Assembly: GCA_032718475.1 (NCBI GenBank)
Contig: JAUCBJ010007943.1
Span: 61,046 to 125,045 of the forward strand
From: Nemertoderma westbladi
Lineage: Eukaryota; Animalia; Xenacoelomorpha
DNA: 64,000 bases
Reading direction: 5' to 3'
Shown here: piece by piece, positions 26,974-64,000 of the stretch
How positions within the stretch are numbered: the first letter of the stretch is position 1
Layout: the number at the start of each line of letters is the position of its first letter
The notes under the pieces: generated by a model
What the model saw: only the letters and a program-made list of their open reading frames with translations
Told to the model about the DNA's origin: nothing
Databases searched by the model: none
Translations under genes and position numbers: made by a program

Positions 26974-27036
26974 ATGAAAAGTGATTTAAAAGTCGAAAAT
27001 CTTGGAGATGAAAATCGAGCAAATGGTGAAGTACCG
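26974..27036 (+). CDS. FUBP1: FUBP-family coding exon 1 (putative)
   Basis: ATG...[21 protein letters not shown]|gtaagt, phase 0. Exon 2 has an alternative ATG at 28014. Confidence 0.6.
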
Positions 27037-45000: not shown

Positions 45001-48000
45001 TTTAACATAACCCCACATGAACTATGCCCACTCCATCTAACATAACCCCATATGAACTATGCTCACTCCATCGAACATAAACCCACCCCACATCTATATG
45101 TGCACTATTATATTACAGGGGTCCACACATGCCCAAGATCAACGAGGTTGCTAACATTGTCCGCTCCCTGGTCGACCAAGCACACGAGAAAGACAAAGCA
45201 AAGTTGGGACAAAGCCAAACTGGTGTGGGAACTGGTGGATCGAGGCCTAGTGGGTCGTCTACTGGTCTGCCAGTTGCATTCCTTCCTCTACCCGCAGCTC
45301 GTACCGGTCTTGTTATTGGTAAAGGTTCGTTGGTATATAAATAAACTTTAAGTCACTGGTACTTATATTTACCGGACCGTTTATAATTATTGGAACTTAA
45401 TTGACACTTTGTGGTGGTTTATGTTACCGTAAGTAAATCACTAATTGTTGGTAAGTGGTACATTTTTCTGTGACACAAATAGTTGGTGTAATATTAGTAT
45501 ATTTTTCGTTATAGGTGGCGACACAATAAAACGTATTAACAGAGACACCGGGGCATTCGTTGAGTGTGAGAACAACGCGGTAGCCCCACCTGGACACAGA
45601 CTGTTTAAAATCGTTGGGAGACCCGATCAGATAGAGCATGCGTGTCGGTATGTTGGGTGGGATAAACTACACCGATAGTAGGTTCATTACGTATAGGCTA
45701 TCTGTGACCATGGATAATACCATAGCTCTACTCCTTTACAACTACTCCGGAAATATTTAAAAACAATCTTTAACTCACTCTTTATATTTAGGAAACATTT
45801 AAATCATTCATATAATTATCATAGAAAGTCTATATTTCGTGTAAAGTTTTTAAATTCCTCGGAAAAAAACGTAGAGTTAATTAGTTTGAAATCATTATGT
45901 AAATATTCCTTTTGTTTAGGATAATGCGGGAGATTGCCCAAGTCCCTCACCCCCCGGGCCCCCCTGGTCCCCCTGCCCCCTTCTCTACGGGCGGCCCCCC
46001 GGCCCCGCCCGCAATCAACGCAGCCTACCCCCCATCCGCGCCCCCACACCCGTTCGGAGCGCCCCCTCCCGGTAAGTTGATATATTACTAGTTTTTCTAC
46101 AATTTATTGGCATCTTGGGAGAATGAGTGGGCTGTATATTATTATAATTATAGTTGGGCGCACTTTAGCAAAGTTGGCAGACTTCCAACCTGGAGGTCAC
46201 CAGTTCGATCCCACCTGGACGTAATTATGACTTTGTATTTACGTAATAGTTAAGTTGATGATAATTACCAAAGGTTGTGCGGTGAATGTATTTTATACAT
46301 TTGTATACTTTATAGTACGGCTATTATTATTAATTACCTTTAATAGGTTGTTAATGGAAACAAATTTCCATAAAAACCTTCCCTTAGTCATATAAACGTA
46401 AAATTATTGTCAGTTTCCGGTATTGATTCTATTGTGTGTTATTTAGTTGTAAACTTATCGTATTATTTTCCCTAGGCATTCACCTGGCGCCCATCCAGTA
46501 TCCCCCACCGGGAGCGCCCCCACACTCCCACAGCGGCCCCCCTCCGGGCCACTTTACTCCCATGGGGGCCCCGCCCACGCTTCTGGTGACCACGATCCCC
46601 CGCCCCCAACCGCCGCCCGAGATCAAAGTTCCCGAGCAGTGGCACCCCCCTACTGCGGTGTACCACGCCCTCCCCCAGCCCAGCGCGGCGGCCCCCCTGG
46701 GCAGCTACTCCCAACCGCCCCCTGGGTTTGCCGCAGCCCCCGCGCCCCAACCGGCCCCCGTATCGGCTCCCTCGGTCGTCTCAGTGCCGCACCCCCGTCC
46801 GCCCCCCGTGGCCCCCGCCGCGGTGCCCCCCGCCGCCCCCACAGCCGCCCCCAAGGAGGACCAGAAGGGTGTGGAATACGCCGCCCAGTGGGCCAAGTAC
46901 TACCGGGAGCAGGCGAACAAAGCGGAGGATGAGTCCCGTAAGAACCTGAGTCGAGGACAGCCGGACTACTCGTCGGCCTGGAGCGAGTACTACAGACAGC
47001 AGGCGGCCAAGGCTGAGGAGGAGGCGAGGAAGTACGAGGCGAGTAAGGTCGCGGCCCTGCAGACCTCCCATATGGGGGTGCCGGCCCCGACCTCGGTGCC
47101 AGGGCAACCGGACTACACAATGGCCTGGGTGGAGTACTTTATGCAGCAGGTGAGGCTTTCCGTCTATACCTTTATTTTTGTTTTCATGTTGACTTTATTA
47201 TGCCATCATATTGGTATCATAGCTGCTATGGAATCGAGTTCAATTGAACCAGAGCGTGATGTCGTATTGGCCCTCGTGTAACTTTGATATTTACGGACAC
47301 GAACAATGTGTGAAGAGACGTGGGGCGTGGGATGTTGACGTTTCGTGACAATTTGTGACGAAAAGGAGAGAGTGCTGGGGGGGGGGGGGGGGGGGGGGTT
47401 ATTAAAAGTGTTGGGGAGGGGGATTTATTAAAAATATATTTAATACTAAAATAATTACTCCGATTGTTTTAAAACATTAATTGTGTCTCTGGTTATATTT
47501 GTTGCACTCACTCTTTTTTTTTATATATTTATTGTCGTTTATAGGCGAATAAAGCGGAGGATGAGGCTCGCAAAGCTAAGGCCGAGGGCCGATCGGCCGA
47601 ATTTGCTGAACAATGGGCCGTCTATTACAGGAAGCAAGCAGATAGCGCAGCAGTCAGTGCAGGAGGTCAGTATGGTAGTTATAGTCATATCATAGATAGT
47701 TATGATAGCTATATATGCTGCATATGGTGTATAGTGTAGCTATATGTGTTATGATAGCTACACTGACTGATAGTTGTTGGACAACACGATGGTTGTCCAT
47801 AAACGTGGTCTTCCACCTTTGGGAGTCCATTGCTGTGCCATTGCTCATGTACCAGCTGAAGTTCAATATCGGTGCCATGAATCTTACTGACATGGACAAC
47901 ATGGACATCTTCTACCGCAAAACTCTGCGTGGCCTAATTCATCTCGGACCATATGTGAATAACTCCACTTTGCACAAATTATCTGGATGCAGCCCATTAT

Positions 48001-51000
48001 CCATGGTGGCACTGCGTTTCTGTGTTGGAACTCTGCTACGTACCCTAAATTGCCCCAGTCAGTCTCTCCAGCTGGGGTTCAGGTTGGCACTGTGTAGTAA
48101 TCTACATCGTTATACTCATTATAAGGGCATTTCCTCTGGCTACCGAACTGCAGTTTCCTTGTATGCCCTACCACGCCCCTTTTCTATTACAACATTTTAT
48201 TACTCAACGTCATCTGTTGTGTCACGGATTAGCACGAGTAATCCGACAGAGCGGGATAGAATTTCCGCTAACTTTATAAGCACTGTCTTCAACACAAGTG
48301 CTTTGAGTCTTGAGCAGAAACGCTCTCTCATACTAGAATACTTCAACGTAATTTAACGAGTATGAGTTCTGCCAATATACGTACTCTATGAGTTAGCTCA
48401 CCTCTACTGTTGCGGTCGGCTGATGGGCACGCACTGTTCATAAGTATGCTCCCTCCCATTACCCATTCCCAGTTGCTCGAACTAGAGCCTCTCCCCCTCT
48501 CTCTTTGTCTGGTGCTTTTACTATATATATATGCATTTTATTCTAGCCATGGTGCTATTTTACTTAATTTTAACTAATATAATACCGGTTCGCCCGGGCG
48601 TTGTGTTGAATGAATGAATGAATACATAGCTGGCTATCAGTCAGTGTAGGTCAGTGCGGTAGTTATAGTAGCTGGCTATCAGTCAGTGTAGGTCAGTGCG
48701 GTAGTTATAGTAGCTGGCTATCAGTCAGTGTAGGTCAGTGCGGTAGTTATAGTAGCTGGCTATCAGTCAGTGTAGGTCAGTGCGGTAGTTATAGTAGCTG
48801 GCTATCAGTCAGTGTAGGTCAGTGCGGTAGTTATAGTAGCTGGCTATCAGTCAGTGTAGGTCAGTGCGGTAGTTATAGTAGCTGGCTATCAGTCAGTGCG
48901 GTAGTTATAGTAGCTGGCTATCAGTCAGTGTAGGTCAGTGCGGTAGTTATAGTAGCTGGCTATCAGTCAGTGCGGTAGTTATAGTAGCTGGCTATCAGTC
49001 AGTGTAGGTCAGTGCGGTAGTTATAGTAGCTGGCTATCAGTCAGTGCGGTAGTTATAGTAGCTGGCTATCAGTCAGTGTAGGTCAGTGCGGTAGTTATAG
49101 TAGCTGGCTATCAGTCAGTGCGGTAGTTATAGTAGCTGGCTATCAGTCAGTGTAGGTCAGTGCGGTAGTTATAGTAGCTGGCTATCAGTCAGTGCGGTAG
49201 TTATAGTAGCTGGCTATCAGTCAGTGTAGGTCAGTGCGGTAGTTATAGTAGCTGGCTATCAGTCAGTGCGGTAGTTATAGTAGCTGGCTATCAGTCAGTG
49301 TAGGTCAGTGCGGTAGTTATAGTAGCTGGCTATCAGTCAGTGTAGGTCAGTGTGGTAGTTATAGTAGCTGGCTATCAGTCAGTGTAGGTCAGTGCGGTAG
49401 TTATAGTAGCTGGCTATCAGTCAGTGTAGGTCAGTGCGGTAGTTATAGTAGCTGGCTATCAGTCAGTGTAGGTCAGTGCGGTAGTTATAGTAGCTGGCTA
49501 TCAGTCAGTGCGGTAGTTATAGTAGCTGGCTATCAGTCAGTGTAGGTCAGTGCGGTAGTTATAGTAGCTGGCTATCAGTCAGTGCGGTAGTTATAGTAGC
49601 TGGCTATCAGTCAGTGTAGGTCAGTGCGGTAGTTATAGTAGCTGGCTATCAGTCAGTGCGGTAGTTATAGTAGCTGGCTATCAGTCAGTGTAGGTCAGTG
49701 CGGTAGTTATAGTAGCTGGCTATCAGTCCGTGTAGTAGGTTAGTGCGGTAGTTATAGTAGCTGGCTATCAGTCAGTGCGGTAGTTATAGTAGCTGGCTAT
49801 CAGTCAGTGTAGGTCAGTGCGGTAGTTATAGTAGCTGGCTATCAGTCAGTGTAGGTCAGTGCGGTAGTTATAGTAGCTGGCTATCAGTCCGTGTAGGTCA
49901 GTGCGGTAGTTATAGTAGCTGGCTATCAGTCAGTGCGGTAGTTATAGTAGCTGGCTATCAGTCAGTACGGTAGTTATAGTAGCTGGCTATCAGTCCGTGT
50001 AGGTCAGTGCGGTAGTTATAGTAGCTGGCTATCAGTCAGTGTAGGTCAGTGCGGTAGTTATAGTAGCTGGCTATCAGTCAGTGTAGGTCAGTGCGGTAGT
50101 TATAGTAGCTGGCTATCAGTCAGTGTAGGTCAGTGCGGTAGTTATAGTAGCTGGCTATCTGTCAGTGCGGTAGTTATAGTAGCTGGCTATCAGTCAGTGT
50201 AGGTCAGTGCGGTAGTATAGTAGCTGGCTATCAGTCAGTGTAGGTCAGTGCGGTAGTTATAGTAGCTGGCTATCAGTCAGTGCGGTAGTTATAGTAGCTG
50301 GTTATCAGTCAGTGTAGGTCAGTGCGGTAGTTATAGTAGCTGGCTATCAGTCAGTGTAGGTCAGTGCGGTAGTTATAGTAGCTGGCTATCAGTCAGTGCG
50401 GTAGTTATAGTAGCTGGCTATCAGTCAGTGTAGGTCAGTGCGGTAGTTATAGTAGCTGGCTATCAGTCAGTGTAGGTCAGTGCGGTAGTTATAGTAGCTG
50501 GCTATCAGTCAGTGCGGTAGTTATAGTAGCTGGCTATCAGTCAGTGTAGGTCAGTGCGGTAGTTATAGTAGCTGGCTATCGACGTAGCTGGCTATCAGTC
50601 CGTGTAGTAGGTTAGTGCGGTAGTTATAGTAGCTGGCTATCAGTCAGTGCGGTAGTTATAGTAGCTGGCTATCAGTCAGTGTAGGTCAGTGCGGTAGTTA
50701 TAGTAGCTGGCTATCAGTCAGTGCGGTAGTTATAGTAGCTGGCTATCAGTCAGTGTAGGTCAGTGCGGTAGTTATAGTAGCTGGCTATTAGTCCGTGTAG
50801 TAGGTTAGTGCGGTAGTTATAGTAGCTGGCTATCAGTCAGTGCGGTAGTTATAGTAGCTGGCGATCAGTCAGTGTAGGTCAGTGCGGTAGTTATAGTAGC
50901 TGGCTATCAGTCCGTGTAGGTCAGTGCGGTAGTTATAGTAGCTGGCTATCAGTCAGTGTAGGTCAGTGCGGTAGTTATAGTAGCTGGCTATCAGTCCGTG

Positions 51001-54000
51001 TAGGTCAGTGCGGTAGTTATAGTAGCTGGCTATCAGTCAGTGTAGGTCAGTACGGTAGTTATAGTAGCTGGCTATCAGTCCGTGTAGGTCAGTGCGGTAG
51101 TTATAGTAGCTGGCTATCAGTCAGTGCGGTAGTTATAGTAGCTGGCTATCAGTCAGTGTAGGTCAGTGCGGTAGTTATAGTAGCTGGCTATCAGTCAGTG
51201 CGGTAGTTATAGTAGCTGGCTATCAGTCAGTGCGGTAGTTATAGTAGCTGGCTATCAGTCAGTGCGGTAGTTATAGTAGCTGGCTATCAGTCAGTGTAGG
51301 TCAGTGCGGTAGTTATAGTAGCTGGCTATCAGTCAGTGCGGTAGTTATAGTAGCTGGCTATCAGTCAGTACGGTAGTTATAGTAGCTGGCTATCAGTCAG
51401 TGTAGGTCAGTGCGGTAGTTATAGTAGCTGGCTATCAGTCCGTGTAGGTCAGTGCGGTAGTTATAGTAGCTGGCTATCAGTCCGTGTAGGTCAGTGCGGT
51501 AGTTATAGTAGCTGGCTATCAGTCAGTGTAGGTCAGTGGGGTAGTTATAGTAGCTGGCTATCAGTCCGTGTAGGTCAGTGCGGTAGTTATAGTAGCTGGC
51601 TATCAGTCAGTGCGGTAGTTATAGTAGCTGGCTATCAGTCAGTGTAGGTCAGTGCGGTAGTTATAGTAGCTGGCTATCAGTCCGTGTAGGTCAGTGCGGT
51701 AGTTATAGTAGCTGGCTATCAGTCAGTGCGGTAGTTATAGTAGCTGGCTATCAGTCAGTGTAGGTCAGTGCGGTAGTTATAGTAACTGGCTATCTGTCCG
51801 TGTAGTCAGTGCGGTAGTTATAGTAGCTGGCTATCAGTCAGTGTAGTAGGTCAGTGCGGTAGTTATAGTAGCTGGCTATCAGTCAGTGTAGGTCAGTGTG
51901 GTAGTTATAGTAGCTGGCTATCAGTCAGTGTAGGTCAGTGCGGTAGTTATAGTAGCTGGCTATCAGTCCGTGTAGTAGGTCAGTGCGGTAGTTATAGTAG
52001 CTGGCTATCAGTCAGTGTAGGTCAGTGCGGTAGTTATAGTAGCTGGCTATCAGTCAGTGTAGGTCAGTGTGGTAGTTATAGTAGCTGGCTATCAGTCCGT
52101 GTAGTAGGTCAGTGCGGTAGTTATAGTAGCTGGCTATCAGTCAGTGTAGGTCAGTGTGGTAGTTATAGTATCTGGCTATCAGTCAGTGTAGGTCAGTGCG
52201 GTAGTTATAGTAGCTGGCTATCAGTCAGTGTAGGTCAGTGTGGTAGTTATAGTAGCTGGCTATCAGTCCGTGTAGTAGGTCAGTGCGGTAGTTATAGTAG
52301 CTGGCTATCAGTCCGTGTAGGTCAGTGCGGTAGTTATAGTAGCTGGCTATCAGTCAGTGCGGTAGTTATAGTAGCTGGCTATCAGTCAGTGTAGGTCAGT
52401 GCGGTAGTTATAGTAGCTGGCTATCAGTCAGTGTAGGTCAGTGCGGTAGTTATAGTAGCTGGCTATCAGTCCATGTAGGTCAGTGTGGTAGTTATAGTAG
52501 CTGGCTATCAGTCAGTGCGGTAGTTATAGTAGCTGGCTATCAGTCAGTGTAGGTCAGCGCGGTAGTTATAGTAGCTGGCTATCAGTCCGTGTAAGTCAGT
52601 GCGGTAGTTAAAGTAGCTGGCTATCAGTCCGTGTAGGTCAGTGTGGTAGTTATAGTAGCTGGCTATCAGTCAGTGCGGTAGTTATAATAGCTGGCTATCA
52701 GTCAGTACGGTAGTTATAGTAGCTGGCTATCAGTCAGTGTAGGTCAGTGCGGTAGTTATAGTAGCTGGCTATCAGTCAGTGTAGGTCAGCGCGGTAGTTA
52801 TAGTAGCTGGCTATCAGTCAGTGTAGGTCAGTGCGGTAGTTATAGTAGCTGGCTATCAGTCAGTGTAGGTCAGTGCGGTAGTTATAGTAGCTGGCTATCA
52901 GTCAGTGTAGTTCAGTGCGGTAGTTATAGTAGCTGGCTATCAGTCAGTGTAGGTCAGTGCGGTAGTTATAGTAGCTGGCTATCAGTCAGTGCGGTAGTTA
53001 TAGTAGCTGGCTATCAGTCAGTGCGGTAGTTATAGTAGCTGGTTATCAGTCAGTACGGTAGTTATAGTAGCTGGCTATCAGTCCGTGTAGTAGGTTAGTG
53101 CGGTAGTTATAGTAGCTGGCTATCAGTCAGTGCGGTAGTTATAGTAGCTGGCTATCAGTCAGTGTAGGTCAGTGCGGTAGTTATAGTATCTGGCTATCAG
53201 TCAGTGCGGTAGTTATAGTAGCTGGCTATCAGTCAGTGTAGGTCAGTGCGGTAGTTATAGTAGCTGGCTATCAGTCAGTGCGGTAGTTATAGTAGCTGGC
53301 TATCAGTCAGTGTAGGTCAGTGCGGTAGTTATAGTAGCTGGCTATGAGTCAGTGCGGTAGTTATAGTACCTGGCTATCAGTCAGTGTAGGTCAGTGCGGT
53401 AGTTATAGTAGCTGGCTATCAGTCAGTGCGGTAGTTATAGTAGCTGGCTATCAGTCAGTGTAGGTCAGTACGGTAGTTATAGTAGCTGGCTATCAGTCAG
53501 TGTAGGTCAGTACGGTAGTTATAGTAGCTGGCTATCAGTCAGTGTAGGTCAGTGCGGTAGTTATAGTAGCTGGCTATCAGTCCGTGTAGGTCAGTGCGGT
53601 AGTTATAGTAGCTGGCTATCAGTCAGTGCGGTAGTTATAGTAGCTGGCTATCAGTCAGTGTAGGTCAGTGCGGTAGTTATAGTAGCTGGCTATCAGTCCG
53701 TGTAGGTCAGTTCGGTAGTTATAGTAGCTGGCTATCAGTCAGTGCGGTAGTTATAGTAGCTGGCTATCAGTCAGTGTAGGTCAGTGCGGTAGTTATAGTA
53801 GCTGGCTATCAGTCCGTGTAGGTCAGTGCGGTAGTTATAGTAGCTGGCTATCAGTCAGTGTAGTAGGTCAGTGCGGTAGTTATAGTAGCTGGCTATCAGT
53901 CAGTGTAGGTCAGTGTGGTAGTTATAGTAGCTGGCTATCAGTCAGTGTAGGTCAGTGCGGTAGTTATAGTAGCTGGCTATCAGTCCGTGTAGTAGGTCAG

Positions 54001-57000
54001 TGCGGTAGTTATAGTAGCTGGCTATCAGTCTGTGTAGGTCAGTGTGGTAGTTATAGTAGCTGGCTATCAGTCAGTGTAGGTCAGTGCGGTAGTTATAGTA
54101 GCTGGCTATCAGTCCGTGTAGGTCAGTGCGGTAGTTATAGTAGCTGGCTATCAGTCAGTGCGGTAGTTATAGTAGCTGGTTATCAGTCAGTACGGTAGTT
54201 ATAGTAGCTGGCTATCAGTCCGTGTAGTAGGTTAGTGCGGTAGTTATAGTAGCTGGCTATCAGTCAGTGCGGTAGTTATAGTAGCTGGCTATCAGTCAGT
54301 GTAGGTCAGTGCGGTAGTTATAGTAGCTGGCTATCAGTCAGTGCGGTAGTTATAGTAGCTGGCTATCAGTCAGTGTAGGTCAGTGCGGTAGTTATAGTAG
54401 CTGGCTATCAGTCAGTGCGGTAGTTATAGTAGCTGGCTATCAGTCAGTGTAGGTCAGTGCGGTAGTTATAGTAGCTGGCTATGAGTCAGTGCGGTAGTTA
54501 TAGTACCTGGCTATCAGTCAGTGTAGGTCAGTGCGGTAGTTATAGTAGCTGGCTATCAGTCAGTGCGGTAGTTATAGTAGCTGGCTATCAGTCAGTGTAG
54601 GTCAGTACGGTAGTTATAGTAGCTGGCTATCAGTCAGTGTAGGTCAGTACGGTAGTTATAGTAGCTGGCTATCAGTCAGTGTAGGTCAGTGCGGTAGTTA
54701 TAGTAGCTGGCTATCAGTCCGTGTAGGTCAGTGCGGTAGTTATAGTAGCTGGCTATCAGTCAGTGCGGTAGTTATAGTAGCTGGCTATCAGTCAGTGTAG
54801 GTCAGTGCGGTAGTTATAGTAGCTGGCTATCAGTCCGTGTAGGTCAGTTCGGTAGTTATAGTAGCTGGCTATCAGTCAGTGCGGTAGTTATAGTAGCTGG
54901 CTATCAGTCAGTGTAGGTCAGTGCGGTAGTTATAGTAGCTGGCTATCAGTCCGTGTAGGTCAGTGCGGTAGTTATAGTAGCTGGCTATCAGTCAGTGTAG
55001 TAGGTCAGTGCGGTAGTTATAGTAGCTGGCTATCAGTCAGTGTAGGTCAGTGTGGTAGTTATAGTAGCTGGCTATCAGTCAGTGTAGGTCAGTGCGGTAG
55101 TTATAGTAGCTGGCTATCAGTCCGTGTAGTAGGTCAGTGCGGTAGTTATAGTAGCTGGCTATCAGTCAGTGTAGGTCAGTGTGGTAGTTATAGTAGCTGG
55201 CTATCAGTCAGTGTAGGTCAGTGCGGTAGTTATAGTAGCTGGCTATCAGTCCGTGTAGGTCAGTGCGGTAGTTATAGTAGCTGGCTATCAGTCAGTGCGG
55301 TAGTTATAGTAGCTGGCTATCAGTCCGTGTAGGTCAGTGCGGTAGTTATAGTAGCTGGCTATCAGTCAGTGTAGTAGGTCAGTGCGGTAGTTATAGTAGC
55401 TGGCTATCAGTCAGTGTAGGTCAGTGTGGTAGTTATAGTAGCTGGCTATCAGTCAGTGTAGTAGGTCAGTGCGGTAGTTATAGTAGCTGGCTATCAGTCA
55501 GTGCGGTAGTTACAGTAGCTGGCTATCAGTCAGTGTAGGTCAGTGCGGTAGTTATAGTAGCTGGCTATCAGTCCGTGTAGGTCAGTGCGGTAGTTATAGT
55601 AGCTGGCTATCAGTCAGTGTAGTAGGTCAGTGCGGTAGTTATAGTAGCTGGCTATCAGTCAGTGTAGGTCAGTGTGGTAGTTATAGTAGCTGGCTATCAG
55701 TCAGTGTAGGTCAGTGCGGTAGTTATAGTAGCTGGCTATCAGTCAGTACGGTAGTTATAGTAGCTGGCTATCAGTCAGTGTAGGTCAGTGCGGTAGTTAT
55801 AGTAGCTGGCTATCAGTCAGTGCGGTAGTTATAGTAGCTGGCTTTCAGTCAGTGTAGGTCAGTGCGGTAGTTATAGTAGCTGGCTATCAGTCAGTGTAGG
55901 TCAGTGCGGTAGTTATAGTAGCTGGCTATCAGTCAGTACGGTAGTTATAGTAGCTGGCTATCAGTCAGTGTAGGTCAATGCGGTAGTTATAGTAGCTGGC
56001 TATCATATCAGTCAGTGTAGGTCAGTGCGGTAGTTATAGTAGCTGGCTATCAGTCAGTGTAGGTCAGTGCGGTAGTTATAGTAGCTGGCTATCAGTCAGT
56101 GTAGGTCAGTGCGGTAGTTATAGTAGCTGGCTATCAGTCAGTGTAGGTCAGTGCGGTAGTTATAGTAGCTGGCTATCAGTCCGTGTAGGTCAGTGCGGTA
56201 GTTATAGTAGCTGGCTATCAGTCAGTGTAGTAGGTCAGCGCGCTAGTTATAGTAGCTGGCTTTCAGTCAGTGTAGGTCAGTGCGGTAGTTATAGTAGCTG
56301 GCTATCAGTCAGTGTAGGTCAGTGCGGTAGTTATAGTAGCTGGCTATCAGTCAGTGTAGGTCAGTGCGGTAGTTATAGTAGCTGGCTATCAGTCCGTGTA
56401 GGTCAGTGCGGTAGTTATAGTAGCTGGCTATCAGTCAGTGTAGGTCAGTGCGGTAGTTATAGTAGCTGGCTATCAGTCCGTGTAGGTCAGTGCGGTAGTT
56501 ATAGTAGCTGGCTATCAGTCAGTGCGGTAGTTATAGTAGCTGGCTATCAGTCCGTGTAGGTCAGTGCGGTAGTTATAGTAGCTGGCTATCAGTCAGTGTA
56601 GTAGGTCAGTGCGGTAGTTATAGTAGCTGGCTATCAGTCAGTGTAGGTCAGTGTGGTAGTTATAGTAGCTGGCTATCAGTCAGTGTAGTAGGTCAGTGCG
56701 GTAGTTATAGTAGCTGGCTATCAGTCAGTGCGGTAGTTACAGTAGCTGGCTATCAGTCAGTGTAGGTCAGTGCGGTAGTTATAGTAGCTGGCTATCAGTC
56801 CGTGTAGGTCAGTGCGGTAGTTATAGTAGCTGGCTATCAGTCAGTGTAGTAGGTCAGTGCGGTAGTTATAGTAGCTGGCTATCAGTCAGTGTAGGTCAGT
56901 GTGGTAGTTATAGTAGCTGGCTATCAGTCAGTGTAGGTCAGTGCGGTAGTTATAGTAGCTGGCTATCAGTCAGTACGGTAGTTATAGTAGCTGGCTATCA

Positions 57001-60000
57001 GTCAGTGTAGGTCAGTGCGGTAGTTATAGTAGCTGGCTATCAGTCAGTGCGGTAGTTATAGTAGCTGGCTTTCAGTCAGTGTAGGTCAGTGCGGTAGTTA
57101 TAGTAGCTGGCTATCAGTCAGTGTAGGTCAGTGCGGTAGTTATAGTAGCTGGCTATCAGTCAGTACGGTAGTTATAGTAGCTGGCTATCAGTCAGTGTAG
57201 GTCAATGCGGTAGTTATAGTAGCTGGCTATCATATCAGTCAGTGTAGGTCAGTGCGGTAGTTATAGTAGCTGGCTATCAGTCAGTGTAGGTCAGTGCGGT
57301 AGTTATAGTAGCTGGCTATCAGTCAGTGTAGGTCAGTGCGGTAGTTATAGTAGCTGGCTATCAGTCAGTGTAGGTCAGTGCGGTAGTTATAGTAGCTGGC
57401 TATCAGTCCGTGTAGGTCAGTGCGGTAGTTATAGTAGCTGGCTATCAGTCAGTGTAGTAGGTCAGCGCGCTAGTTATAGTAGCTGGCTTTCAGTCAGTGT
57501 AGGTCAGTGCGGTAGTTATAGTAGCTGGCTATCAGTCAGTGTAGGTCAGTGCGGTAGTTATAGTAGCTGGCTATCAGTCAGTGTAGGTCAGTGCGGTAGT
57601 TATAGTAGCTGGCTATCAGTCCGTGTAGGTCAGTGCGGTAGTTATAGTAGCTGGCTATCAGTCAGTGCGCTAGTTATAGTAGCTGGCTTTCAGTCAGTGT
57701 AGGTCAGTGCGGTAGTTATAGTATGCTGGCTATCAGTCAGTACGGTAGTTATAGTAGCTGGCTATCAGTCAGTGTAGGTCAGCGCGGTAGTTATAGTAGC
57801 TGGCTATCAGTCAGTGTAGGTCAGTGCGGTAGTTATAGTAGCTGGCTATCAGTCAGTGTAGGTCAGTACGGTAGTTATAGTAGCTGGCTATCAGTCAGTG
57901 CAGTAGTTATAGTAGCTGGCTATCAGTCAGTGTAGGTCAGTGCGGTAGTTATAGTAGCTGGCTATCAGTCAGTGTAGGTCAGCGCGGTAGTTATAGTAGC
58001 TGGCTATCAGTCAGTGTAGGTCAGTGCGGTAGTTATAGTAGCTGGCTATCAGTCAGTGTAGGTCAGTGCGGTAGTTATAGTAGCTGGCTATCAGTCAGTG
58101 TAGGTCAGTGCGGTAGTTATAGTAGCTGGCTATCAGTCAGTGTAGGTCAGTGCGGTAGTTATAGTAGCTGGCTATCAGTCAGTACGGTAGTTATAGTAGC
58201 TGGCTATCAGTCAGTACGGTAGTTATAGTAGCTGGCTATCAGTCAGTGTAGGTCAGTGCGGTAGTTATAGTAGCTGGCTATCAGTCAGTGCGGTAGTTAT
58301 AGTAGCTGGCTATCAGTCAGTACGGTAGTTATAGTAGCTGGCTATCAGTCAGTGTAGGTCAGTGCGGTAGTTATAGTAGCTGGCTATCAGTCAGTGTAGG
58401 TCAGTGCGGTAGTTATAGTAGCTGGCTATCAGTCAGTGTAGGTCAGTGCGGTAGTTATAGTAGCTGGCTATCAGTCAGTACGGTAGTTATAGTAGCTGGC
58501 TATCAGTCAGTGCGGTAGTTATAGTAGCTGGCTATCAGTCAGTGTAGGTCAGTGCGGTAGTTATAGTAGCTGGCTATCAGTCAGTGTAGGTCAGTGCGGT
58601 AGTTATAGTAGCTGGCTATCAGTCAGTGCGGTAGTTATAGTAGCTGGCTATCAGTCAGTACGGTAGTTATAGTAGCTGGCTATCAGTCAGTGTAGGTCAG
58701 TGCGGTAGTTATAGTAGCTGGCTATCAGTCAGTGTAGGTCAGTGCGGTAGTTATAGTAGCTGGCTATCAGTCAGTGTAGGTCAGTGCGGTAGTTATAGTA
58801 GCTGGCTATCAGTCAGTGTAGGTCAGTGCGGTAGTTATAGTAGCTGGCTATCAGTCAGTGTAGGTCAGTGCGGTAGTTATAGTAGCTGGCTATCAGTCAG
58901 TGTAGGTCAGTGCGGTAGTTATAGTAGCTGGCTATCAGTCAGTGTAGGTCAGTGCGGTAGTTATAGTAGCTGGCTATCAGTCAGTACGGTAGTTATAGTA
59001 GCTGGCTATCAGTCAGTGCGGTAGTTATAGTAGCTGGCTATCAGTCAGTGTAGGTCAGTGCGGTAGTTATAGTAGCTGGCTATCAGTCAGTGTAGGTCAG
59101 TGCGGTAGTTATAGTAGCTGGCTATCAGTCAGTGTAGGTCAGTGCGGTAGTTATAGTAGCTGGCTATCAGTCAGTACGGTAGTTATAGTAGCTGGCTATC
59201 AGTCAGTGTAGGTCAGTGCGGTAGTTATAGTAGCTGGCTATCAGTCAGTGTAGGTCAGTGCGGTAGTTATAGTAGCTGGCTATCAGTCAGTGCGGTAGTT
59301 ATAGTAGCTGGCTATCAGTCAGTGCGGTAGTTATAGTAGCTGGCTGGCTATCAGTCAGTGCGGTAGTTATAGTAGCTGGCTATCAGTCAGTGTAGGTCAG
59401 TGCGGTAGTTATAGTAGCTGGCTATCAGTCAGTACGGTAGTTATAGTAGCTGGCTGGCTATCAGTCAGTGCGGTAGTTATAGTAGCTGGCTATCAGTCAG
59501 TGTAGGTCAGTGCGGTAGTTATAGTAGCTGGCTATCAGTCAGTACGGTAGTTATAGTAGCTGGCTATCAGTCAGTACGGTAGTTATAGTAGCTGGCTATC
59601 AGTCAGTGTAGGTCAGTGCGGTAGTTATAGTAGGTGGCTATCAGTCAGTGTAGGTCAGTGCGGTAGTTATATTAGCTGGCTATCAGCCAGTGTAGGTCAG
59701 TGCGGTAGTTATAATACTACTACTACTAGGATCGGCATGCTGCATTGCAGCTGCATTTTTAAGAATGCTGTGCCGGCTTGTCAACAAAATTGCACCGCCA
59801 CAACTCCCTATCACCCATGACATTTGCTAGATCATCCGCATCTTTAAGGCCAGTGTCCTTTAAGATGCGTCTCAAGAAAGTCATGGGCTGTCCACCATGC
59901 TTATTCACTCCATGAGGCTGCCAAAGTACAAGATTATGCACTGGCTGGTCCTCACGGCGAAAGCAATGTCCTGCAAAGCGGAGGCGATTTTGTTCTAGTG

Positions 60001-63000
60001 TCAAGCTTGGGGGAACCAATGAGACACCTCCAATGTTATATAGTGTCTGGTTGGAGATGTGTGCATTGTACTTGACACAATGTACCCGGCGTAGCATTCT
60101 TGTGAATGTGCCATCCAGAGATTTGGTGTCCTCAGCAGTTAGAGCCCAGCATGGACTCCCGTAGAGGAGTACTGGAACTACTGCTGCTCTAAATAATCGG
60201 ACCTTAAGTTTCCGATTAATTCTAGGTGACTTCCAAATCCTGGAAAGCCTATTCAAGGCTGCCCATGCCTTTCCCTTACGTATTCGAAGGTCCTCACCTG
60301 ACTTTCGGATCCATGATCCCAGGTAACAGAAGTCGTCCACATGCTCAAGCATACCATCCTTTGAGCTTATGCTCATCCGATCAGAGACTTGCTGAGGACT
60401 TTCAAAGTTAACTGTCAGAATTCTGGTCTTTCTGGAGTTATTAAAAAGACCAACACTAGAAGCAGCATGTTCTAATGAGCTGAGGAGCCGCTGGGCTCCC
60501 TCTAATGATTCTGAGAGTACTCCTAAGTCATCAGCAAAGTCTAGATCAGTTAGGTACTTGGCAGGATTTCCTCGACTTCTGGAGCCAGTAGGTGGAGTTA
60601 TCATCACCCCATCATCATTATGATGATCTAAGGACATGCGTAGAACATAGTCAACCACAATAATGAACAAGAATGGTGCAAGTGTGTCTCCTTGGAGGAC
60701 GCCCCATAACACTTCAAATGGTTCTGTGTCACCGTCAACAGTAGACACAAATGTTGTCGAACCATCGTATACTGATCTGATTGCTGCAATAATTTCATCA
60801 GGAATTCCATATAATGAAAGTATGCTGAACATACGTGAGCGAGATACTGAATCAAAGGCCTTGAAGAAGTCAACAAAGATAACAGCCAGATGTCTGTCTT
60901 TCTTTTTTGATAACTCTTCAATTATCCTTCTAAGTGCCAAAATGGGCTCCATGGTCCCACGACCTTTACGGAACCCATTCTGATTTCCACGTAGCAGTCT
61001 CTCAATGGGATCCCTGATGCGATGTAATATAATTCTATTGTATAGTTTTGCAGCAATCGAGATCAATGAGATTCCCCGAAAAGAACCATAGAGTGTTAGG
61101 TTGCCCTTCTTGGGAACTGGCACCAACTTATTTGTTTTCATTTCTTGTGGGACTCTTGTTGTACGGTACATGTCTACTATGATGGGATAGATGAGCTTTA
61201 AACACTCAGGTATTTTAAAGACCTCAGGGGGAACACCATCTACTCCACTGGCACGATTGGTCTTAATGCTCTTTGCAGCAGCATTCACTTCTGCAAAGGA
61301 GATATCGCCAATGGGAATATCTGGGTATAGTAGTTATAGTAGCTGGCTATCAGTCAGTGTAGGTCAGTGCGGTAGTTATAGTAGATGGCTATTAGTCAGT
61401 GCGGTAGTTATAGTAGCTGGCTATCAGTCAGTGTAGGTCAGTGTGGTAGTTATAGTAGCTGGCTATCAGTCAGTGTAGGTCAGTGCGGTAGTTATAGTAG
61501 CTGGCTATCAGTCAGTGCGGTAGTTATAGTAGCTGGCTATCAGTCAGTGTAGGTCAGTACGGTAGTTATAGTAGCTGGCTATCAGTCCGTGTAGGTCAGT
61601 GCGGTAGTTATAGTAGCTGGCTATCAGTCAGTACGGTAGTTATAGTAGCTGGCTATCAGTCAGTACGGTAGTTATAGTAGCTGGCTATCAGTCAGTGTAG
61701 GTCAGTACGGTAGTTATAGTAGCTGGCTATCAGTCCGTGTAGGTCAGTGCGGTAGTTATAGTAGCTGGCTATCAGTCAGTACGGTAGTTATAGTAGCTGG
61801 CTATCAGTCAGTACGGTAGTTATAGTAGCTGGCTATCAGTCAGTGTAGGTCAGTGCGGTAGTTATAGTAGCTGGCTATCAGCCAGTGTAGGTCAGTGCGG
61901 TAGTTATAGTAGCTGGCTATCAGTCAGTGCGGTAGTTATAGTAGCTGGCTATCAGTCCGTGTAGGTCAGTGCGGTAGTTATAGTAGCTGGCTATCAGTCA
62001 GTGTAGGTCAGTGTGGTAGTTATAGTAGCTGGCTATCAGTCAGTGTAGGTCAGTGTGGTAGTTATAGTAGCTGGCTATCAGTCCGTGTAGGTCAGTGCGG
62101 TAGTTATAGTAGCTGGCTATCAGTCAGTACGGTAGTTATAGTAGCTGGCTATCAGTCAGTACGGTAGTTATAGTAGCTGGCTATCAGCCAGTGTAGGTCT
62201 GTGCGGTAGTTATAGTAGCTGGCTATCAGTCAGTGCGGTAGTTATAGTAGCTGGCTATCAGTCAGTGTAGGTCAGTGTGGTAGTTATAGTAGCTGGCTAT
62301 CAGTCAGTACGGTAGTTATAGTAGCTGGCTATCAGTCAGTGTAGGTCAGTGCGGTAGTTATAGTAGCTGGCTATCAGTCAGTGCGGCAGTTATAGTAGCT
62401 GGCTATCAGTCAGTGTAGTAGGTCAGTGCGGTAGTTATAGTAGCTGGCTATCAGTCAGTGCGGTAGTTATAGTAGCTGGCTATCAGTCAGTGTAGGTCAG
62501 TGTGGTAGTTATAGTAGCTGGCTATCAGTCAGTGTAGTAGGTCAGTGCGGTAGTTATAGTAGCTGGCTATCAGTCAGTGTAGGTCAGTGTGGTAGTTATA
62601 GTAGCTGGCTATCAGTCAGTGTAGGTCAGTGTGGTAGTTATAGTAGCTGGCTATCAGTCAGTGTAGTAGGTCAGTGCGGTAGTTATAGTAGCTGGCTATC
62701 AGTCAGTGTAGGTCAGTGTGGTAGTTATAGTAGCTGGCTATCAGTCAGTGTAGGTCAGTGCGGTAGTTATAGTAGCTGGCTATCAGTCAGTGCGGTAGTT
62801 ATAGTAGCTGGCTATCAGTCAGTGTAGTAGGTCAGTGCGGTAGTTATAGTAGCTGGCTATCAGTCAGTGCGGTAGTTATAGTAGCTGGCTATCAGTCAGT
62901 GTAGGTCAGTGTGGTAGTTATAGTAGCTGGCTATCAGTCAGTGTAGTAGGTCAGTGCGGTAGTTATAGTAGCTGGCTATCAGTCAGTGTAGGTCAGTGTG

Positions 63001-63914
63001 GTAGTTATAGTAGCTGGCTATCAGTCAGTGTAGGTCAGTGTGGTAGTTATAGTAGCTGGCTATCAGTCAGTGTAGTAGGTCAGTGCGGTAGTTATAGTAG
63101 CTGGCTATCAGTCAGTGTAGGTCAGTGTGGTAGTTATAGTAGCTGGCTATCAGTCAGTGCGGTAGTTATAGTAGCTGGCTATCAGTCAGTGTAGTAGGTC
63201 AGTGCGGTAGTTATAGTAGCTGGCTATCAGTCAGTGTAGTAGGTCAGTGCGGTAGTTATAGTAGCTGGCTATCAGTCAGTACGGTAGTTATAGTAGCTGG
63301 CTATCAGTCAGTGTAGGTCAGTGTGGTAGTTATAGTAGCTGGCTATCAATCAGTGTAGGTCAGTGCGGTAGTTATAGTAGCTGGCTATCAGTCAGTACGG
63401 TAGTTATAGTAGCTGGCTATCAGTCAGTGTAGTAGGTCAGTGCGGTAGTTATAGTAGCTGGCTATCAGTCAGTGCGGTAGTTATAGTAGCTGGCTATCAT
63501 TGTAGGTGTAAAATTATTACCCTAAATGTAAGTTGCCATCGTAAATTCAAAATCAATGCAATTTTGAATTTTCAAACGTTATTTTTAATACTTATTGTTA
63601 ATTTTTTTATTTTTTTAACTTATTTTTAACTTAATTGTATTTGAGTTGTTTTACGTCCCCCAGGAGCCGGTGGCAATGTCTCCAAGGAGCACCCCCCTAC
63701 GATGGCCCCCCAGCCGGTGCCAGCCCCCGCTGCCCCCCAGCCAGTGAGCGCCCCCGCCCCCCAGCAAGGGGGGCAACGGGACTTCAGCGCCGAGTGGGCG
63801 GACTACTTCGAGAAGCTCCGTAAACTCGGTGTAAACCCCGGCTCGATGGCCCCCGGCGGCGCAGCCGGCGCACTGGCGGGGCACAGCGGTCCCGCCCCCG
63901 TCAAATGGCCCTGA
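26974..63914 (+). CDS. FUBP1: Far upstream element-binding protein family (FUBP1/KHSRP/Drosophila PSI-like) KH RNA-binding protein; 13 coding exons, about 823 aa
   Basis: Exons 26974-27036, 28011-28170, 28681-28870, 32357-32502, 34078-34198, 42569-42683, 44386-44525, 45119-45324, 45515-45647, 45920-46071, 46476-47149, 47545-47665, 63664-63914. All junctions are GT-AG and phase-compatible (2472 nt). NLS-like GVKRPAE..PAVKK, four KH domains, Pro-rich linker, five DYxxxWxEYY-type motifs. The symbol denotes the family, not one-to-one orthology. Confidence 0.9.
27213..27626. mobile_element. MITE with 20-bp TIR, superfamily unclear
   Basis: CAGTTAGGAACACTGGTCAC / GTGACCAGTGTTCCTGACTG, flanked by AAATA on both sides. 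Confidence 0.75.
28011..28170 (+). CDS. FUBP1: FUBP-family exon 2 (bipartite NLS-like)
   Basis: ttgtag|VMNSAPP...[21 protein letters not shown]|gtaagt. Confidence 0.8.
28681..28870 (+). CDS. FUBP1: FUBP-family exon 3 (KH1)
   Basis: [18 protein letters not shown]...GCRLQV...[10 protein letters not shown]|gtgagt. Confidence 0.92.
29790..29982. repeat. Low-complexity (TATATATAYCG)n-type minisatellite
   Basis: Direct tandem TA-rich units punctuated by CCG/TCG. Confidence 0.9.
29992..30824. mobile_element. hAT-type MITE
   Basis: TIR TAGGGGTGTGCCGGAT / ATCCGGCACATCCCTA; near-perfect 8-bp TSD GTTTGATT/GTTTAATT. Confidence 0.85.
31599..31881. mobile_element. PIF/Harbinger-like MITE
   Basis: TIR AGGCCCATTTATACTCGG / CCGAGTATAAATGGAGCT with TWA flanks; internal CCGTACG repeats. 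Confidence 0.75.
32357..32502 (+). CDS. FUBP1: FUBP-family exon 4 (KH1 end, KH2 start)
   Basis: [10 protein letters not shown]...[24 protein letters not shown]|gtaagt. Confidence 0.92.
34078..34198 (+). CDS. FUBP1: FUBP-family exon 5 (KH2 end)
   Basis: [40 protein letters not shown]; the [12 protein letters not shown] string is characteristic of FUBP proteins. Confidence 0.92.
34665..34917 (+). mobile_element. Degraded 3' end of the RTE family also seen at 59714-61329
   Basis: [28 protein letters not shown], then atgcagctgcaatgcagcatgccgat and a tagtag tail. Confidence 0.88.
35867..35975 (-). ncRNA. tRNA-like Pol III unit (SINE-like) with an embedded minimal type I hammerhead ribozyme
   Basis: Minus strand: ACCGCCCTGG TAGCTCAGTGG (A box)...ACTCGG CTGATGA TAAC CGGAA GTTT GAAAC CTAG GTA CCGAGT TCGAGCC (B box)...GGGGCGGT, then a T5 terminator. 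Confidence 0.75.
36114..36317. mobile_element. Mutator-like MITE (204 bp) containing retroposon 3' ends
   Basis: 21-bp perfect TIR GGGTGTAAACGCTACGCCGAC; 9-bp TSD CCATTTAAC (36105-13, 36318-26); RTE tail at ~36250-36297. Confidence 0.85.
36707..38290 (+). CDS. ALDH6A1: Methylmalonate-semialdehyde dehydrogenase [acylating], mitochondrial; intronless, nested in FUBP intron 5
   Basis: 527-aa intact ORF from ATG 36707 (alternative ATG 36686). Presequence [21 protein letters not shown]; [42 protein letters not shown] (catalytic Cys), [21 protein letters not shown]. Confidence 0.97.
38838..40359. mobile_element. Probable non-autonomous DNA element with TTAA termini (Kolobok/Crypton-like)
   Basis: Ends TTAAGCAGCC... 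/ ...GGCAGCATCTTAA; internal inverted ggggttttc/gaaaacccc motifs and GACA repeats; no coding capacity. Confidence 0.4.
40850..42098. repeat. 27-bp G-rich minisatellite (GGAACTGGGGAAGGTGGAATGGTTGTT)n
   Basis: About 45 tandem units with indels; produces spurious PSPVPTTIP / LELGKVEW ORFs. Confidence 0.95.
42569..42683 (+). CDS. FUBP1: FUBP-family exon 6 (KH2-KH3 linker)
   Basis: ttgcag|..[10 protein letters not shown]...[10 protein letters not shown]|gtcagt; phases 2 and 0 match the neighbours. Confidence 0.8.
44386..44525 (+). CDS. FUBP1: FUBP-family exon 7 (KH3)
   Basis: [32 protein letters not shown]...KVCIV|gtgagt. Confidence 0.92.
44562..45082. repeat. 35-bp minisatellite (GAACTATGCTCACTCCATCTAACATAACCCCACAT)n
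   Basis: About 15 tandem copies filling most of intron 7. Confidence 0.95.
45119..45324 (+). CDS. FUBP1: FUBP-family exon 8 (KH3 end, KH4 start)
   Basis: [18 protein letters not shown]...[13 protein letters not shown]|gttcgt. Confidence 0.9.
45515..45647 (+). CDS. FUBP1: FUBP-family exon 9 (KH4)
   Basis: [16 protein letters not shown]...[16 protein letters not shown]|gtatgt. Confidence 0.92.
45920..46071 (+). CDS. FUBP1: FUBP-family exon 10 (Pro-rich)
   Basis: tttag|[18 protein letters not shown]...GAPPP|gtaagt. Confidence 0.88.
46155..46222 (+). mobile_element. Degenerate tRNA-derived (SINE head-like) sequence
   Basis: B box GTTCGATCC, anticodon-like loop CTTCCAA and a weak A box; the cloverleaf is not intact. 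Confidence 0.4.
46476..47149 (+). CDS. FUBP1: FUBP-family exon 11 (Pro-rich region + three tyrosine motifs)
   Basis: [45 protein letters not shown]|gtgagg. Confidence 0.92.
47545..47665 (+). CDS. FUBP1: FUBP-family exon 12 (fourth tyrosine motif)
   Basis: ttatag|[32 protein letters not shown]|gtcagt. Confidence 0.88.
47780..48623 (+). mobile_element. 5'-truncated LINE 3' end with (TGAA)n tail
   Basis: Post-RT region [12 protein letters not shown]...[12 protein letters not shown] resembles the post-RT part of the LINE at the window start; stop at 48356, then a 3' UTR and (TGAA)4. Confidence 0.75.
59714..61329 (-). mobile_element. Young 5'-truncated RTE-clade retrotransposon inserted in the satellite
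   Basis: Intact RT ORF, very short 3' UTR, (TAG)n tail, probable 9-bp TSD GTAGTTATA (59705-13, 61330-38). Confidence 0.93.
59759..61288 (-). CDS. RTE reverse transcriptase (no endonuclease; 5'-truncated)
   Basis: [52 protein letters not shown]. The listed start is an internal GTG; the frame stays open to the truncation point. Confidence 0.93.
   Translation of the reverse strand: MNAAAKSIKTNRASGVDGVPPEVFKIPECLKLIYPIIVDMYRTTRVPQEMKTNKLVPVPKKGNLTLYGSFRGISLISIAAKLYNRIILHRIRDPIERLLRGNQNGFRKGRGTMEPILALRRIIEELSKKKDRHLAVIFVDFFKAFDSVSRSRMFSILSLYGIPDEIIAAIRSVYDGSTTFVSTVDGDTEPFEVLWGVLQGDTLAPFLFIIVVDYVLRMSLDHHNDDGVMITPPTGSRSRGNPAKYLTDLDFADDLGVLSESLEGAQRLLSSLEHAASSVGLFNNSRKTRILTVNFESPQQVSDRMSISSKDGMLEHVDDFCYLGSWIRKSGEDLRIRKGKAWAALNRLSRIWKSPRINRKLKVRLFRAAVVPVLLYGSPCWALTAEDTKSLDGTFTRMLRRVHCVKYNAHISNQTLYNIGGVSLVPPSLTLEQNRLRFAGHCFRREDQPVHNLVLWQPHGVNKHGGQPMTFLRRILKDTGLKDADDLANVMGDRELWRCNFVDKPAQHS
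63664..63914 (+). CDS. FUBP1: FUBP-family last coding exon (fifth tyrosine motif)
   Basis: ccccag|[17 protein letters not shown]...[15 protein letters not shown]...VKWP*; phase 1 matches the exon 12 donor. Confidence 0.88.
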
Positions 63915-64000
63915 TCCTCACCGCTTACAGTGCAATGTAAGTAACTAAACCTCAATAATAACGTCTAGGTGCGGGTCAAATTTGTTAACATTAGGTAAAA

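What the first reader, a model, noticed from the sequence alone, without database searches (positions are those of the whole stretch)
47650..63499. 15-kb satellite appears to be the amplified exon 12 / intron 12 splice junction: hundreds of decoy 5' splice sites inside a U1-interacting splicing regulator gene
Seen: the real junction reads CAGTCAGTGCAGGAG|GTCAGTATGGTAGTTATAGT (47651-47685); the 45-bp satellite variant reads CAGTCAGTGTAGTAG GTCAGTGCGGTAGTTATAGT (4 mismatches in 35 nt), and TAC/TGT variants at the TAT position exist. The homology includes 15 coding nucleotides, so the array most simply arose in situ from the junction. Each 42/45-mer has TAG|GTCAGT, the same intronic hexamer as the true donor, in sense orientation, and the array fills most of the ~16-kb intron. 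Known: PSI represses P-element splicing by stabilising U1 snRNP on pseudo-5' splice sites; AG|GT is also the recursive-splicing motif. Inference: an autoregulatory U1 decoy/sponge, telescripting array or ratchet substrate; neutral expansion remains possible.
Basis: partly seen in the sequence, partly recalled or inferred. Interest (0 to 1): 0.8.

Follow-up and report, generated by a model that had tools for sequence, protein, structure and literature searches.

The report
Splice-donor "mirage" satellite in FUBP intron
A near-copy of the predicted end of one exon of an animal's FUBP/PSI-family gene, with its splice signal, is repeated about 336 times (13 kb) inside the next intron; this is likely a large, tolerated example of a repeat type already known from lancelet and human genes, not a purpose-built decoy.

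Summary
Predicted intron 12 (15,998 bp) of an FUBP/PSI-family gene holds 13.3 kb of 32/42/45-bp units. The 45-mer matches the exon 12/intron 12 junction at 31 of 35 bases, the best match in the non-array window. Corrections: only 219 of 336 units carry AG|GTCAGT; 95 are 32-mers without it; the array starts 941 bp after the homology and is split by a LINE.

The decoy reading is weakly supported. Donor positions vary as much as other positions (6 alleles/9 sites against 19/33). None of 230 TAG|GT sites looks like this gene's acceptors, and intron 12 has no AATAAA. Such arrays are a published kind: lancelet "mirages" and human F7, CBS and IFI6 repeats, where copies are silent or only the nearest are used. 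The scan's unchecked notes report the same thing, up to about 2,100 copies, in many unrelated genes of this genome and in other genomes.

Best reading: a junction-born minisatellite, pushed away by insertions and expanded neutrally, while splicing likely uses the first donor. Splicing and genome-wide spread of the unit could not be tested. New member of a known kind; interest 0.25.

The parts
26974..63914 (+). Host gene: FUBP/PSI/KSRP-family KH protein, 13 predicted coding exons, 823 aa
   Evidence: Open spliced frame, all 12 introns GT-AG; KH_1 in exons 3, 4, 7 and FUBP_C (PF09005) in exons 11 and 13
47545..47665 (+). Predicted exon 12, ending at the donor GAG|GTCAGT (phase 1)
   Evidence: 9 of 11 matches to the U1-pairing consensus; same hexamer at the intron 6 donor; no Pfam hit on this 40-aa exon alone
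47651..47685 (+). Junction segment homologous to the unit: 15 exonic plus 20 intronic bases, 31 of 35 identical to the 45-mer
47686..47775 (.). Scrambled low-complexity patch with local direct (13 nt) and inverted (11 nt) repeats, and an exact inverted 16-nt piece of the unit at 47758-47773
47817..48023 (+). Decayed LINE ORF2 C-terminal fragment in the 941-bp spacer between junction and array
   Evidence: 33% identity over 72 aa, E=4e-10 (pairwise), to the end of an RVT_1-bearing ORF at window 1-1398
48627..59713 (+). Array block 1 (11,087 bp) of 32/42/45-bp monomers, about 98.5-98.8% identical to each class's modal unit, with two large internal duplications (periods 1,227 and 1,137 bp)
59714..61329 (-). 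5'-truncated non-LTR retrotransposon inserted into the array: open 524-codon RT frame, TAG-repeat tail, 9-bp target duplication (59705-59713 and 61330-61338)
   Evidence: RVT_1 E=4e-27; ORF list; flanks; 3' end 98% identical to a copy at 36246-36298
61330..63499 (+). Array block 2 (2,170 bp); 50 of its 56 monomers are types shared with block 1
63664..63914 (+). Predicted exon 13 (last FUBP_C repeat and stop codon), preceded by a T/C-rich acceptor in unique sequence

Best explanation
The array is a 'mirage'-type minisatellite: a short piece spanning the predicted exon 12/intron 12 junction was likely duplicated in place, drifted, was likely pushed about 0.9 kb away by insertions and expanded to about 336 units, while splicing likely still uses the first donor and leaves the copies silent. 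Shown: the homology, the unit classes, the LINE inside the array with its target duplication, the LINE-like fragment in the spacer, and kilobase internal duplications. Inferred: (a) the 45-mer is the oldest form; the 42-mer lacks one TAG, and the 32-mer lacks the 10 bases between two GTCAGTG repeats that the junction itself contains, which removes the donor; (b) growth was by slippage and unequal exchange; (c) the first donor wins because it is transcribed about 1 kb earlier, is the only one at the end of a defined exon and pairs at least as well with U1, as in the 5'-to-3' scanning shown for human F7; (d) the array is tolerated because extra copies fell in the intron and rare use of a copy would give a transcript with an early stop.
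For: Homology 31/35, 0 of 5,000 shuffles. Inverted 16-nt piece of the unit about 90-110 nt after the donor; longest of 594 controls was 12. Donor sites not spared from change: 6 alleles on 9 sites against 19 on 33, p=0.79. 95 of 336 units lack the donor; 0 keep the real donor's +7/+8 bases. 0 of 2,434 GT sites in the array pair with U1 as well as the real donor. Other introns of this gene hold unrelated 11-, 21-, 27- and 35-bp arrays, so the genome makes minisatellites readily. Precedent: PMC1557585 (F7: only the most upstream site used, whatever the copy number), PMC3087553 and PMC3902484 (mirages do not disturb splicing). Unchecked scan notes report such arrays in many unrelated genes of this genome.
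Against: No transcript was seen, so silence of the copies is inferred. The copies are credible U1 sites: the modal copy (-7.5 kcal/mol, 180 copies) is stronger than 4 of the gene's 12 real donors, and 28 copies (-8.3) are within error of the real one (-8.5). The allele test is small (25 alleles) and copies are not independent. Only 1 of the 24 junctions of this gene is clearly a mirage, so the window alone does not show a general tendency. The array does not touch the junction, and about 10 bases of the 45-bp unit have no ungapped counterpart there. In IFI6 and CBS two pseudo-sites are used, and one unchecked note (e1-10614089) reports use of a variant copy in GALNS. No close orthologue was found to fix the direction of copying.
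Confidence: 0.8

Rival explanations
1. Born as a mirage but now functional: the roughly 220 pseudo-donors bind U1, helped by the gene's own protein, and slow or divert removal of intron 12. That would give intron retention or use of a copy; either keeps an in-frame stop and removes the last FUBP_C repeat, so the protein would limit its own level.
For: The host has KH domains and FUBP_C repeats. Drosophila PSI binds U1-70K through its AB motif and recruits U1 to a pseudo-5' site (PMC12167360, passages). Copies pair with U1 as well as several real donors. Any array donor would retain at least 984 nt with a stop at 47737. Functional intronic pseudo-donors and decoy exons exist (PMC13100119; PMC6097662).
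Against: No selection seen on the donor motif, and 28% of units lack it. The published functional cases are deeply conserved single elements, whereas this array is young and homogeneous (about 98.7% identity to modal units). In F7, adding or deleting copies did not change splicing. Unchecked notes place such arrays in genes unrelated to splicing.
Confidence: 0.08
2. Reverse direction: the unit is an older or mobile satellite that landed at this spot, and the exon's low-complexity end and present donor were recruited from one copy.
For: The last A/B-like repeat in exon 12 runs into a low-complexity tail where the homology lies. The inverted 16-nt piece matches the satellite form exactly, better than it matches the exon. 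The rest of the genome was not available.
Against: No other copy in about 50 kb of non-array window on either strand. Two 20-nt patterns found 0 matches in metagenome contigs, and the scan's index held no look-alike; both are weak tests. The same donor hexamer serves intron 6. Published mirages copy from gene to repeat.
Confidence: 0.08
3. The array is a recursive-splicing ladder or a telescripting array that helps to process a long intron.
For: About 230 TAG|GT junction-like motifs in sense orientation. Branch-point-like sequence was not excluded.
Against: Recursive sites are juxtaposed full 3' and 5' site motifs (PMC6110457, passages). The 20 nt before each TAG|GT are 30% G with 2-3 AG dinucleotides, against 5-20% G and 0-1 AG in the 12 real acceptors; 0 of 230 reach the weakest real acceptor. 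Intron 12 has 0 AATAAA and 1 ATTAAA. Without the array and its LINE the intron would be about 1.1 kb and need neither. Caveat: 333 of 2,112 YAG sites of any kind in the array do reach the weakest real acceptor's crude score.
Confidence: 0.02
4. The array is real, but its length is partly an assembly artefact.
For: Exact internal matches of 1,258 nt at period 1,227 and 841 nt at period 1,137.
Against: Dozens of distinct monomer types (42 left of the LINE, 13 right), an irregular order of classes, a cleanly inserted LINE with target duplication, and no N in the window. Recent unequal exchange gives the same duplications.
Confidence: 0.02

Closest known systems
Amphioxus 'mirage' minisatellites (Adh3, globins BflGb6/BflGb9, troponin C, PGBD5); PMC3087553 and PMC3902484, passages read
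   Same: Tandem copies of a unit spanning an exon-intron boundary, lying in the adjacent intron; many but not all units keep the splice signal; units diverge from the authentic boundary (81-100% identity in BflGb6; 31 of 35 here); kilobase turnover of units.
   Different: About 336 units against 2-7 in the globin and PGBD5 cases read; 13 kb; detached from the junction by 941 bp and split by a LINE; host is a splicing regulator in a different, unplaced invertebrate; normal splicing not verified here.
Human F7 IVS7 37-bp VNTR, with IFI6 (6-16), CBS IVS13, LMNB2 and PDGF minisatellites; PMC1557585, abstract, introduction and part 3 of 6 read
   Same: The donor is reiterated downstream in the intron in sense orientation; the copies are plausible U1 sites.
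   Different: There the first monomer is the junction itself, the array follows directly, and F7's pseudo-sites are identical to the donor (5-25 copies). Here the copies differ at -3, +7 and +8, 28% lack the donor, and the array starts about 1 kb away.
Drosophila PSI acting on P-element pseudo-5' splice sites; PMC12167360, passages
   Same: The host is of the same protein family (KH plus FUBP_C/AB-type repeats); pseudo-donors lie near a real donor.
   Different: The P-element pseudo-sites are a few sites in the exon upstream of the donor (recalled). Here they are hundreds of intronic copies 1-16 kb downstream, with no evidence of binding or regulation.
Decoy exons (SF3B1 intron 4, OGT, ARGLU1; PMC6097662, abstract and passages) and ultraconserved pseudo-5' sites (ENOX1/Enox; PMC13100119, abstract and passages)
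   Same: Unused splice signals inside a large intron, in some cases of a splicing-factor gene.
   Different: Those are deeply conserved and, for decoy exons, have acceptors bound by U2AF. This array is young, variable at the donor, and has no acceptor-like context at its TAG|GT sites.

Membership tests
Mirage minisatellite | Tandem repeat whose unit spans an exon-intron boundary of the host gene | tested here: met
   31 of 35 identity across 15 exonic and 20 intronic bases; 0 of 5,000 shuffles; the boundary itself is predicted
Mirage minisatellite | Extra copies lie in the adjacent intron, same orientation, many but not all with the splice signal | tested here: met
   Both blocks are in intron 12; 224 of 336 units keep AG|GT(C/T)AGT
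Mirage minisatellite | Normal splicing is undisturbed | not testable with these tools
   No transcript data could be laid on the locus; the frame across the predicted junction is open and brings in a FUBP_C repeat
Mirage minisatellite | Length varies between alleles | not testable with these tools
   One haplotype only; internal kilobase duplications show recent turnover
F7-type junction VNTR (strict sense) | First monomer is the junction, the array follows directly, and the donor is reiterated exactly | tested here: not met
   941-bp gap; 0 copies keep the -3 or +7/+8 bases of the real donor. Works like one, but is not filed as one.
Recursive splice sites (ratchet points) | A full 3' splice site motif juxtaposed to the donor | tested here: not met
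   0 of 230 TAG|GT sites reach the weakest of 12 real acceptors on a crude composition score; G-rich and AG-rich upstream
Decoy exon / functional pseudo-5' splice site | Splice signals under purifying selection or conserved across species | tested here: inconclusive
   Within the array the donor is not spared (p=0.79, low power); no close relative found to test conservation
Decoy exon / functional pseudo-5' splice site | Binds U1/U2AF and alters retention or splicing of the host intron | not testable with these tools
   Needs CLIP and splicing assays; predicted U1 pairing is in the range of real donors
FUBP/PSI/KSRP protein family (host) | KH domains followed by FUBP_C (A/B-type) repeats | tested here: met
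   KH_1 above cut-off in exons 3, 4, 7; PF09005 above cut-off in exon 11 (3 stretches) and exon 13
FUBP/PSI/KSRP protein family (host) | Binds U1-70K | not tested
   Known for Drosophila PSI (PMC12167360); inferred here from family only

The most novel reading that the evidence does not exclude
A neutrally born splice-junction satellite has been co-opted as a copy-number-tuned feedback switch. The FUBP/PSI protein holds U1 on about 220 pseudo-donors in its own last coding intron, raising retention or use of a copy, which gives an early stop and removes the last U1-70K-binding repeat. Array length would then set the level of a splicing regulator.
Probability: 0.07. Interest if true: 0.75.

Novelty: new member of a known kind. 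Interest (0 to 1): 0.25.

Why it matters
As most likely read, it is one more mirage, over ten times larger than the published cases I read. Its value is as a natural test of donor choice: one real donor against about 220 near-equal copies. Because it is detached and diverged, it also records how such an array ages: 45 to 42 to 32 bp, loss of the donor, and LINE insertions. The larger open question is why this genome apparently makes giant junction arrays in many genes (unchecked scan notes); that needs a genome-wide study rather than this locus alone. If the feedback reading were true, it would be a satellite-encoded, length-tuned autoregulation of a splicing factor, which my searches did not show in print.

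Tried and rejected
Whole genome: none is held, so the key test, whether the unit occurs elsewhere, could not be run. Sequencing runs for 45100-47780, kind RNA: none was listed, so no reads were laid; this is no evidence either way. Two 20-nt unit patterns in metagenome contigs: 0 matches each; weak, since the host may not be there. Orthologues of the exon 11 repeats: 15 weak, mostly vertebrate FUBP hits and 10 unnamed weak hits; none is close enough to fix the direction of copying. Homologue search with part of the spacer frame: none of 34 candidates scored; Pfam gave 0 hits; its LINE nature rests on one pairwise alignment. A weak M35 peptidase hit on a minus-strand spacer frame (E=5e-4, below cut-off) was set aside as chance. 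Placement of the organism: the nested ALDH6A1's best named hits are molluscs at 76-78%. A quick tree (careful search unfinished) of the query and 62 of 120 hits (the top 45 plus named ones) left it on a long branch in an unsupported, mainly mollusc/annelid/brachiopod cluster. RNA folding: the exon end can pair with the inverted piece and loop out the donor, but z=-0.79. The array's z=-3.08 was discounted because shuffles destroy periodicity. Other junctions: 1 of 24 is a clear mirage; the intron 2 acceptor (0 of 100 shuffles) and intron 10 donor (1 of 100) are short T/A-rich matches that I treat as chance. TAC/TGT variants as ancestral relics: not needed, since TGT is what CpG decay of TGCG would give (inference). 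Literature: one search returned 0 papers and nothing on giant junction arrays; one search returned 3 papers, 2 relevant. No supplements were read; the mirage alignments in PMC3087553 and PMC3902484 are in supplements that I did not open.

Full report
Host gene. The window holds a 13-exon gene on the + strand (26974-63914). A hand-built model gives 12 GT-AG introns and an open frame of 823 codons plus stop. Pfam finds KH_1 in exons 3, 4 and 7, and FUBP_C (PF09005) in exon 11 (3 stretches, E=5e-13) and exon 13; 2 of the 7 exon pieces scanned (exons 8 and 12) had no hit. It is therefore an FUBP/PSI/KSRP-family gene. Exon 12 is 47545-47665 and intron 12 is 15,998 bp. Seven in-frame GT sites lie before the read-through stop at 47737. 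By inspection GAG|GTCAGT is the only one close to the consensus, and intron 6 uses the same hexamer. The donor is predicted, not seen in RNA. The organism is an invertebrate animal that I could not place.

The array. Tandem Repeats Finder gives two blocks, 48627-59713 and 61330-63499, 13,257 bp in all, 83% of the intron. They split into 336 monomers: 201 of 42 bp, 95 of 32 bp, 30 of 45 bp and 10 others, each class about 98.5-98.8% identical to its modal unit. The 42-mer is the 45-mer without one TAG. The 32-mer lacks a further 10 bases between two GTCAGTG repeats and so has no AG|GT donor. Exact internal matches of 1,258 and 841 nt at periods 1,227 and 1,137 show recent block duplication. A 5'-truncated LINE (59714-61329, minus strand; RVT_1 E=4e-27; open 524-codon frame) sits inside the array with a 9-bp target duplication, and 50 of 56 monomers to its right are types also found to its left. 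The array therefore predates this insertion.

Homology to the junction. The 35-mer 47651-47685 matches 18 copies of the 45-mer with 4 mismatches. It is the top hit among 2,016 window-strand tests outside the array, and 0 of 5,000 shuffles reached its score. A second footprint lies at 47758-47773: an exact inverted 16-nt piece of the unit, where the longest match in 594 control windows was 12. It sits in a patch of short direct and inverted duplications. The 941-bp spacer includes a frame with 33% identity over 72 aa to the end of another LINE ORF in the window. I infer that the array once lay next to the junction and was pushed away by insertions. The direction, gene to satellite, is the simplest reading but is not proven: no close orthologue was found and the genome is not held.

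Are the copies functional? 219 of 336 monomers carry AG|GTCAGT. They are believable U1 sites: using the recalled U1 5' end, the modal copy scores -7.5 kcal/mol, better than 4 of the gene's 12 donors, and 28 copies score -8.3 against -8.5 for the real donor. None of 2,434 GT sites in the array reaches it. Against function: donor positions carry 6 distinct alleles on 9 sites against 19 on 33 elsewhere (231 42/45-mers; Fisher p=0.79; low power); 28% of units lack the donor; none has the real +7/+8 bases. As recursive sites the TAG|GT motifs fail: 0 of 230 reach the weakest real acceptor on a leave-one-out composition score, although 333 of 2,112 array YAGs of any kind do. Recursive sites need a juxtaposed 3' site motif (PMC6110457, passages). 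Intron 12 has no AATAAA and one ATTAAA (hexamers recalled), so telescripting has little to suppress. Use of any copy would retain at least 984 nt with a stop at 47737 and lose the exon 13 FUBP_C repeat. That makes leakage cheap to discard, and it is also what a feedback loop would use, so the feedback reading cannot be excluded.

What is known. PMC1557585 (abstract, introduction, part 3 of 6) lists human minisatellites whose first unit spans an exon-intron boundary: F7, IFI6, CBS, LMNB2 and PDGF. In F7 only the most upstream donor is used, even against stronger pseudo-sites and whatever the copy number; only perfect-consensus copies competed. In IFI6 and CBS two pseudo-sites are also used. PMC3087553 and PMC3902484 (passages) describe lancelet mirages that do not disturb splicing and are unstable in length. 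PMC2812944 (passages) reports tandem repeats at exon-intron boundaries in human duplicated genes. Functional pseudo-donors and decoy exons are known but deeply conserved (PMC13100119; PMC6097662). PSI's U1-70K link and pseudo-site action are stated in PMC12167360 (passages).

Earlier scan notes. I recorded my reading (neutral junction-born minisatellite, about 75%) before looking. The notes are unchecked AI reports. They describe donor or acceptor arrays in GALNS, a nuclear receptor, tensin, aconitase, mitoguardin, CUL3, a RhoGEF, RGM, BRSK, RBM25 and a carbonic anhydrase of this same genome, up to about 2,100 copies, mostly with RNA using the first site, and in at least 15 genomes. They gave me the term 'mirage', which I checked in the papers. 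I could not check their loci. If right, they make the splicing-regulator host a coincidence. Within this gene only 1 of 24 junctions is a clear case, while four other introns hold unrelated arrays.

Verdict. It meets the two testable features of a mirage, and it fails the strict F7 pattern (contiguous, exact) and the recursive-site test. Most likely it is a detached, ageing, neutrally expanded mirage whose copies are ignored (0.8). Co-option as an autoregulatory U1 decoy is possible but unsupported (about 0.07-0.08). New member of a known kind; interest 0.25.

Noticed in passing
window 36707-38290 (+): An intact, intronless 527-aa ALDH6A1/methylmalonate-semialdehyde dehydrogenase gene nested on the same strand inside intron 5 of the FUBP gene; likely a retrocopy (Aldedh E=3e-137; 70-79% identity to listed homologues).
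   Followed up: partly
window 46478-47664 and 63666-63911: The protein has about five A/B-type repeats: three Pfam stretches in exon 11, one in exon 13, and a similar W-x-x-Y-Y motif in exon 12 that Pfam missed. Silkworm PSI has two AB motifs (PMC12167360).
   Followed up: partly
window 44542-45086: A 35-bp minisatellite (15.5 copies) fills 545 of the 593 bases of intron 7; its unit holds branch-point-like CTAAC/CTCAC words (consensus recalled). It is not junction-derived.
   Followed up: partly
window 42684-42750: The other GTCAGT donor (intron 6) is followed by three degenerate TCAGTGGA-like repeats, perhaps an incipient duplication; not significant in the test run (14 of 100 shuffles).
   Followed up: partly
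window 40892-42098: A 27-bp G-rich minisatellite (45 copies) in intron 5 with strong GC skew (0.83).
   Followed up: no
window 34669-34918 and 36246-36298: Two more 3' pieces of the LINE family that is inserted in the array (77% and 98% identical), on the opposite strand, both in intron 5.
   Followed up: partly
window 6649-7833 and 16881-18065: A 1,185-bp direct repeat at 99.8% identity flanking about 9 kb that looks by eye like minus-strand coding sequence; possibly a young LTR retroelement. Not translated.
   Followed up: no
window 1 to about 5800 (-): A long non-LTR retrotransposon-like region; 1-1398 encodes an RVT_1 domain (E=1e-28).
   Followed up: partly
window 48570-48626 (-): A short GC-rich hairpin plus a GAAT microsatellite directly before the array; resembles a Helitron 3' end (recalled resemblance, untested).
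   Followed up: no
window 63935-63945: A consensus GTAAGT donor about 20 bases after the predicted stop codon, suggesting a 3' UTR intron that runs out of the window.
   Followed up: no
window 47651-47659 with 47761-47769: A perfect 9-bp inverted repeat pairs the exon 12 end with the intron in the centroid fold, looping out the donor; folding energy is not unusual (z=-0.79).
   Followed up: partly
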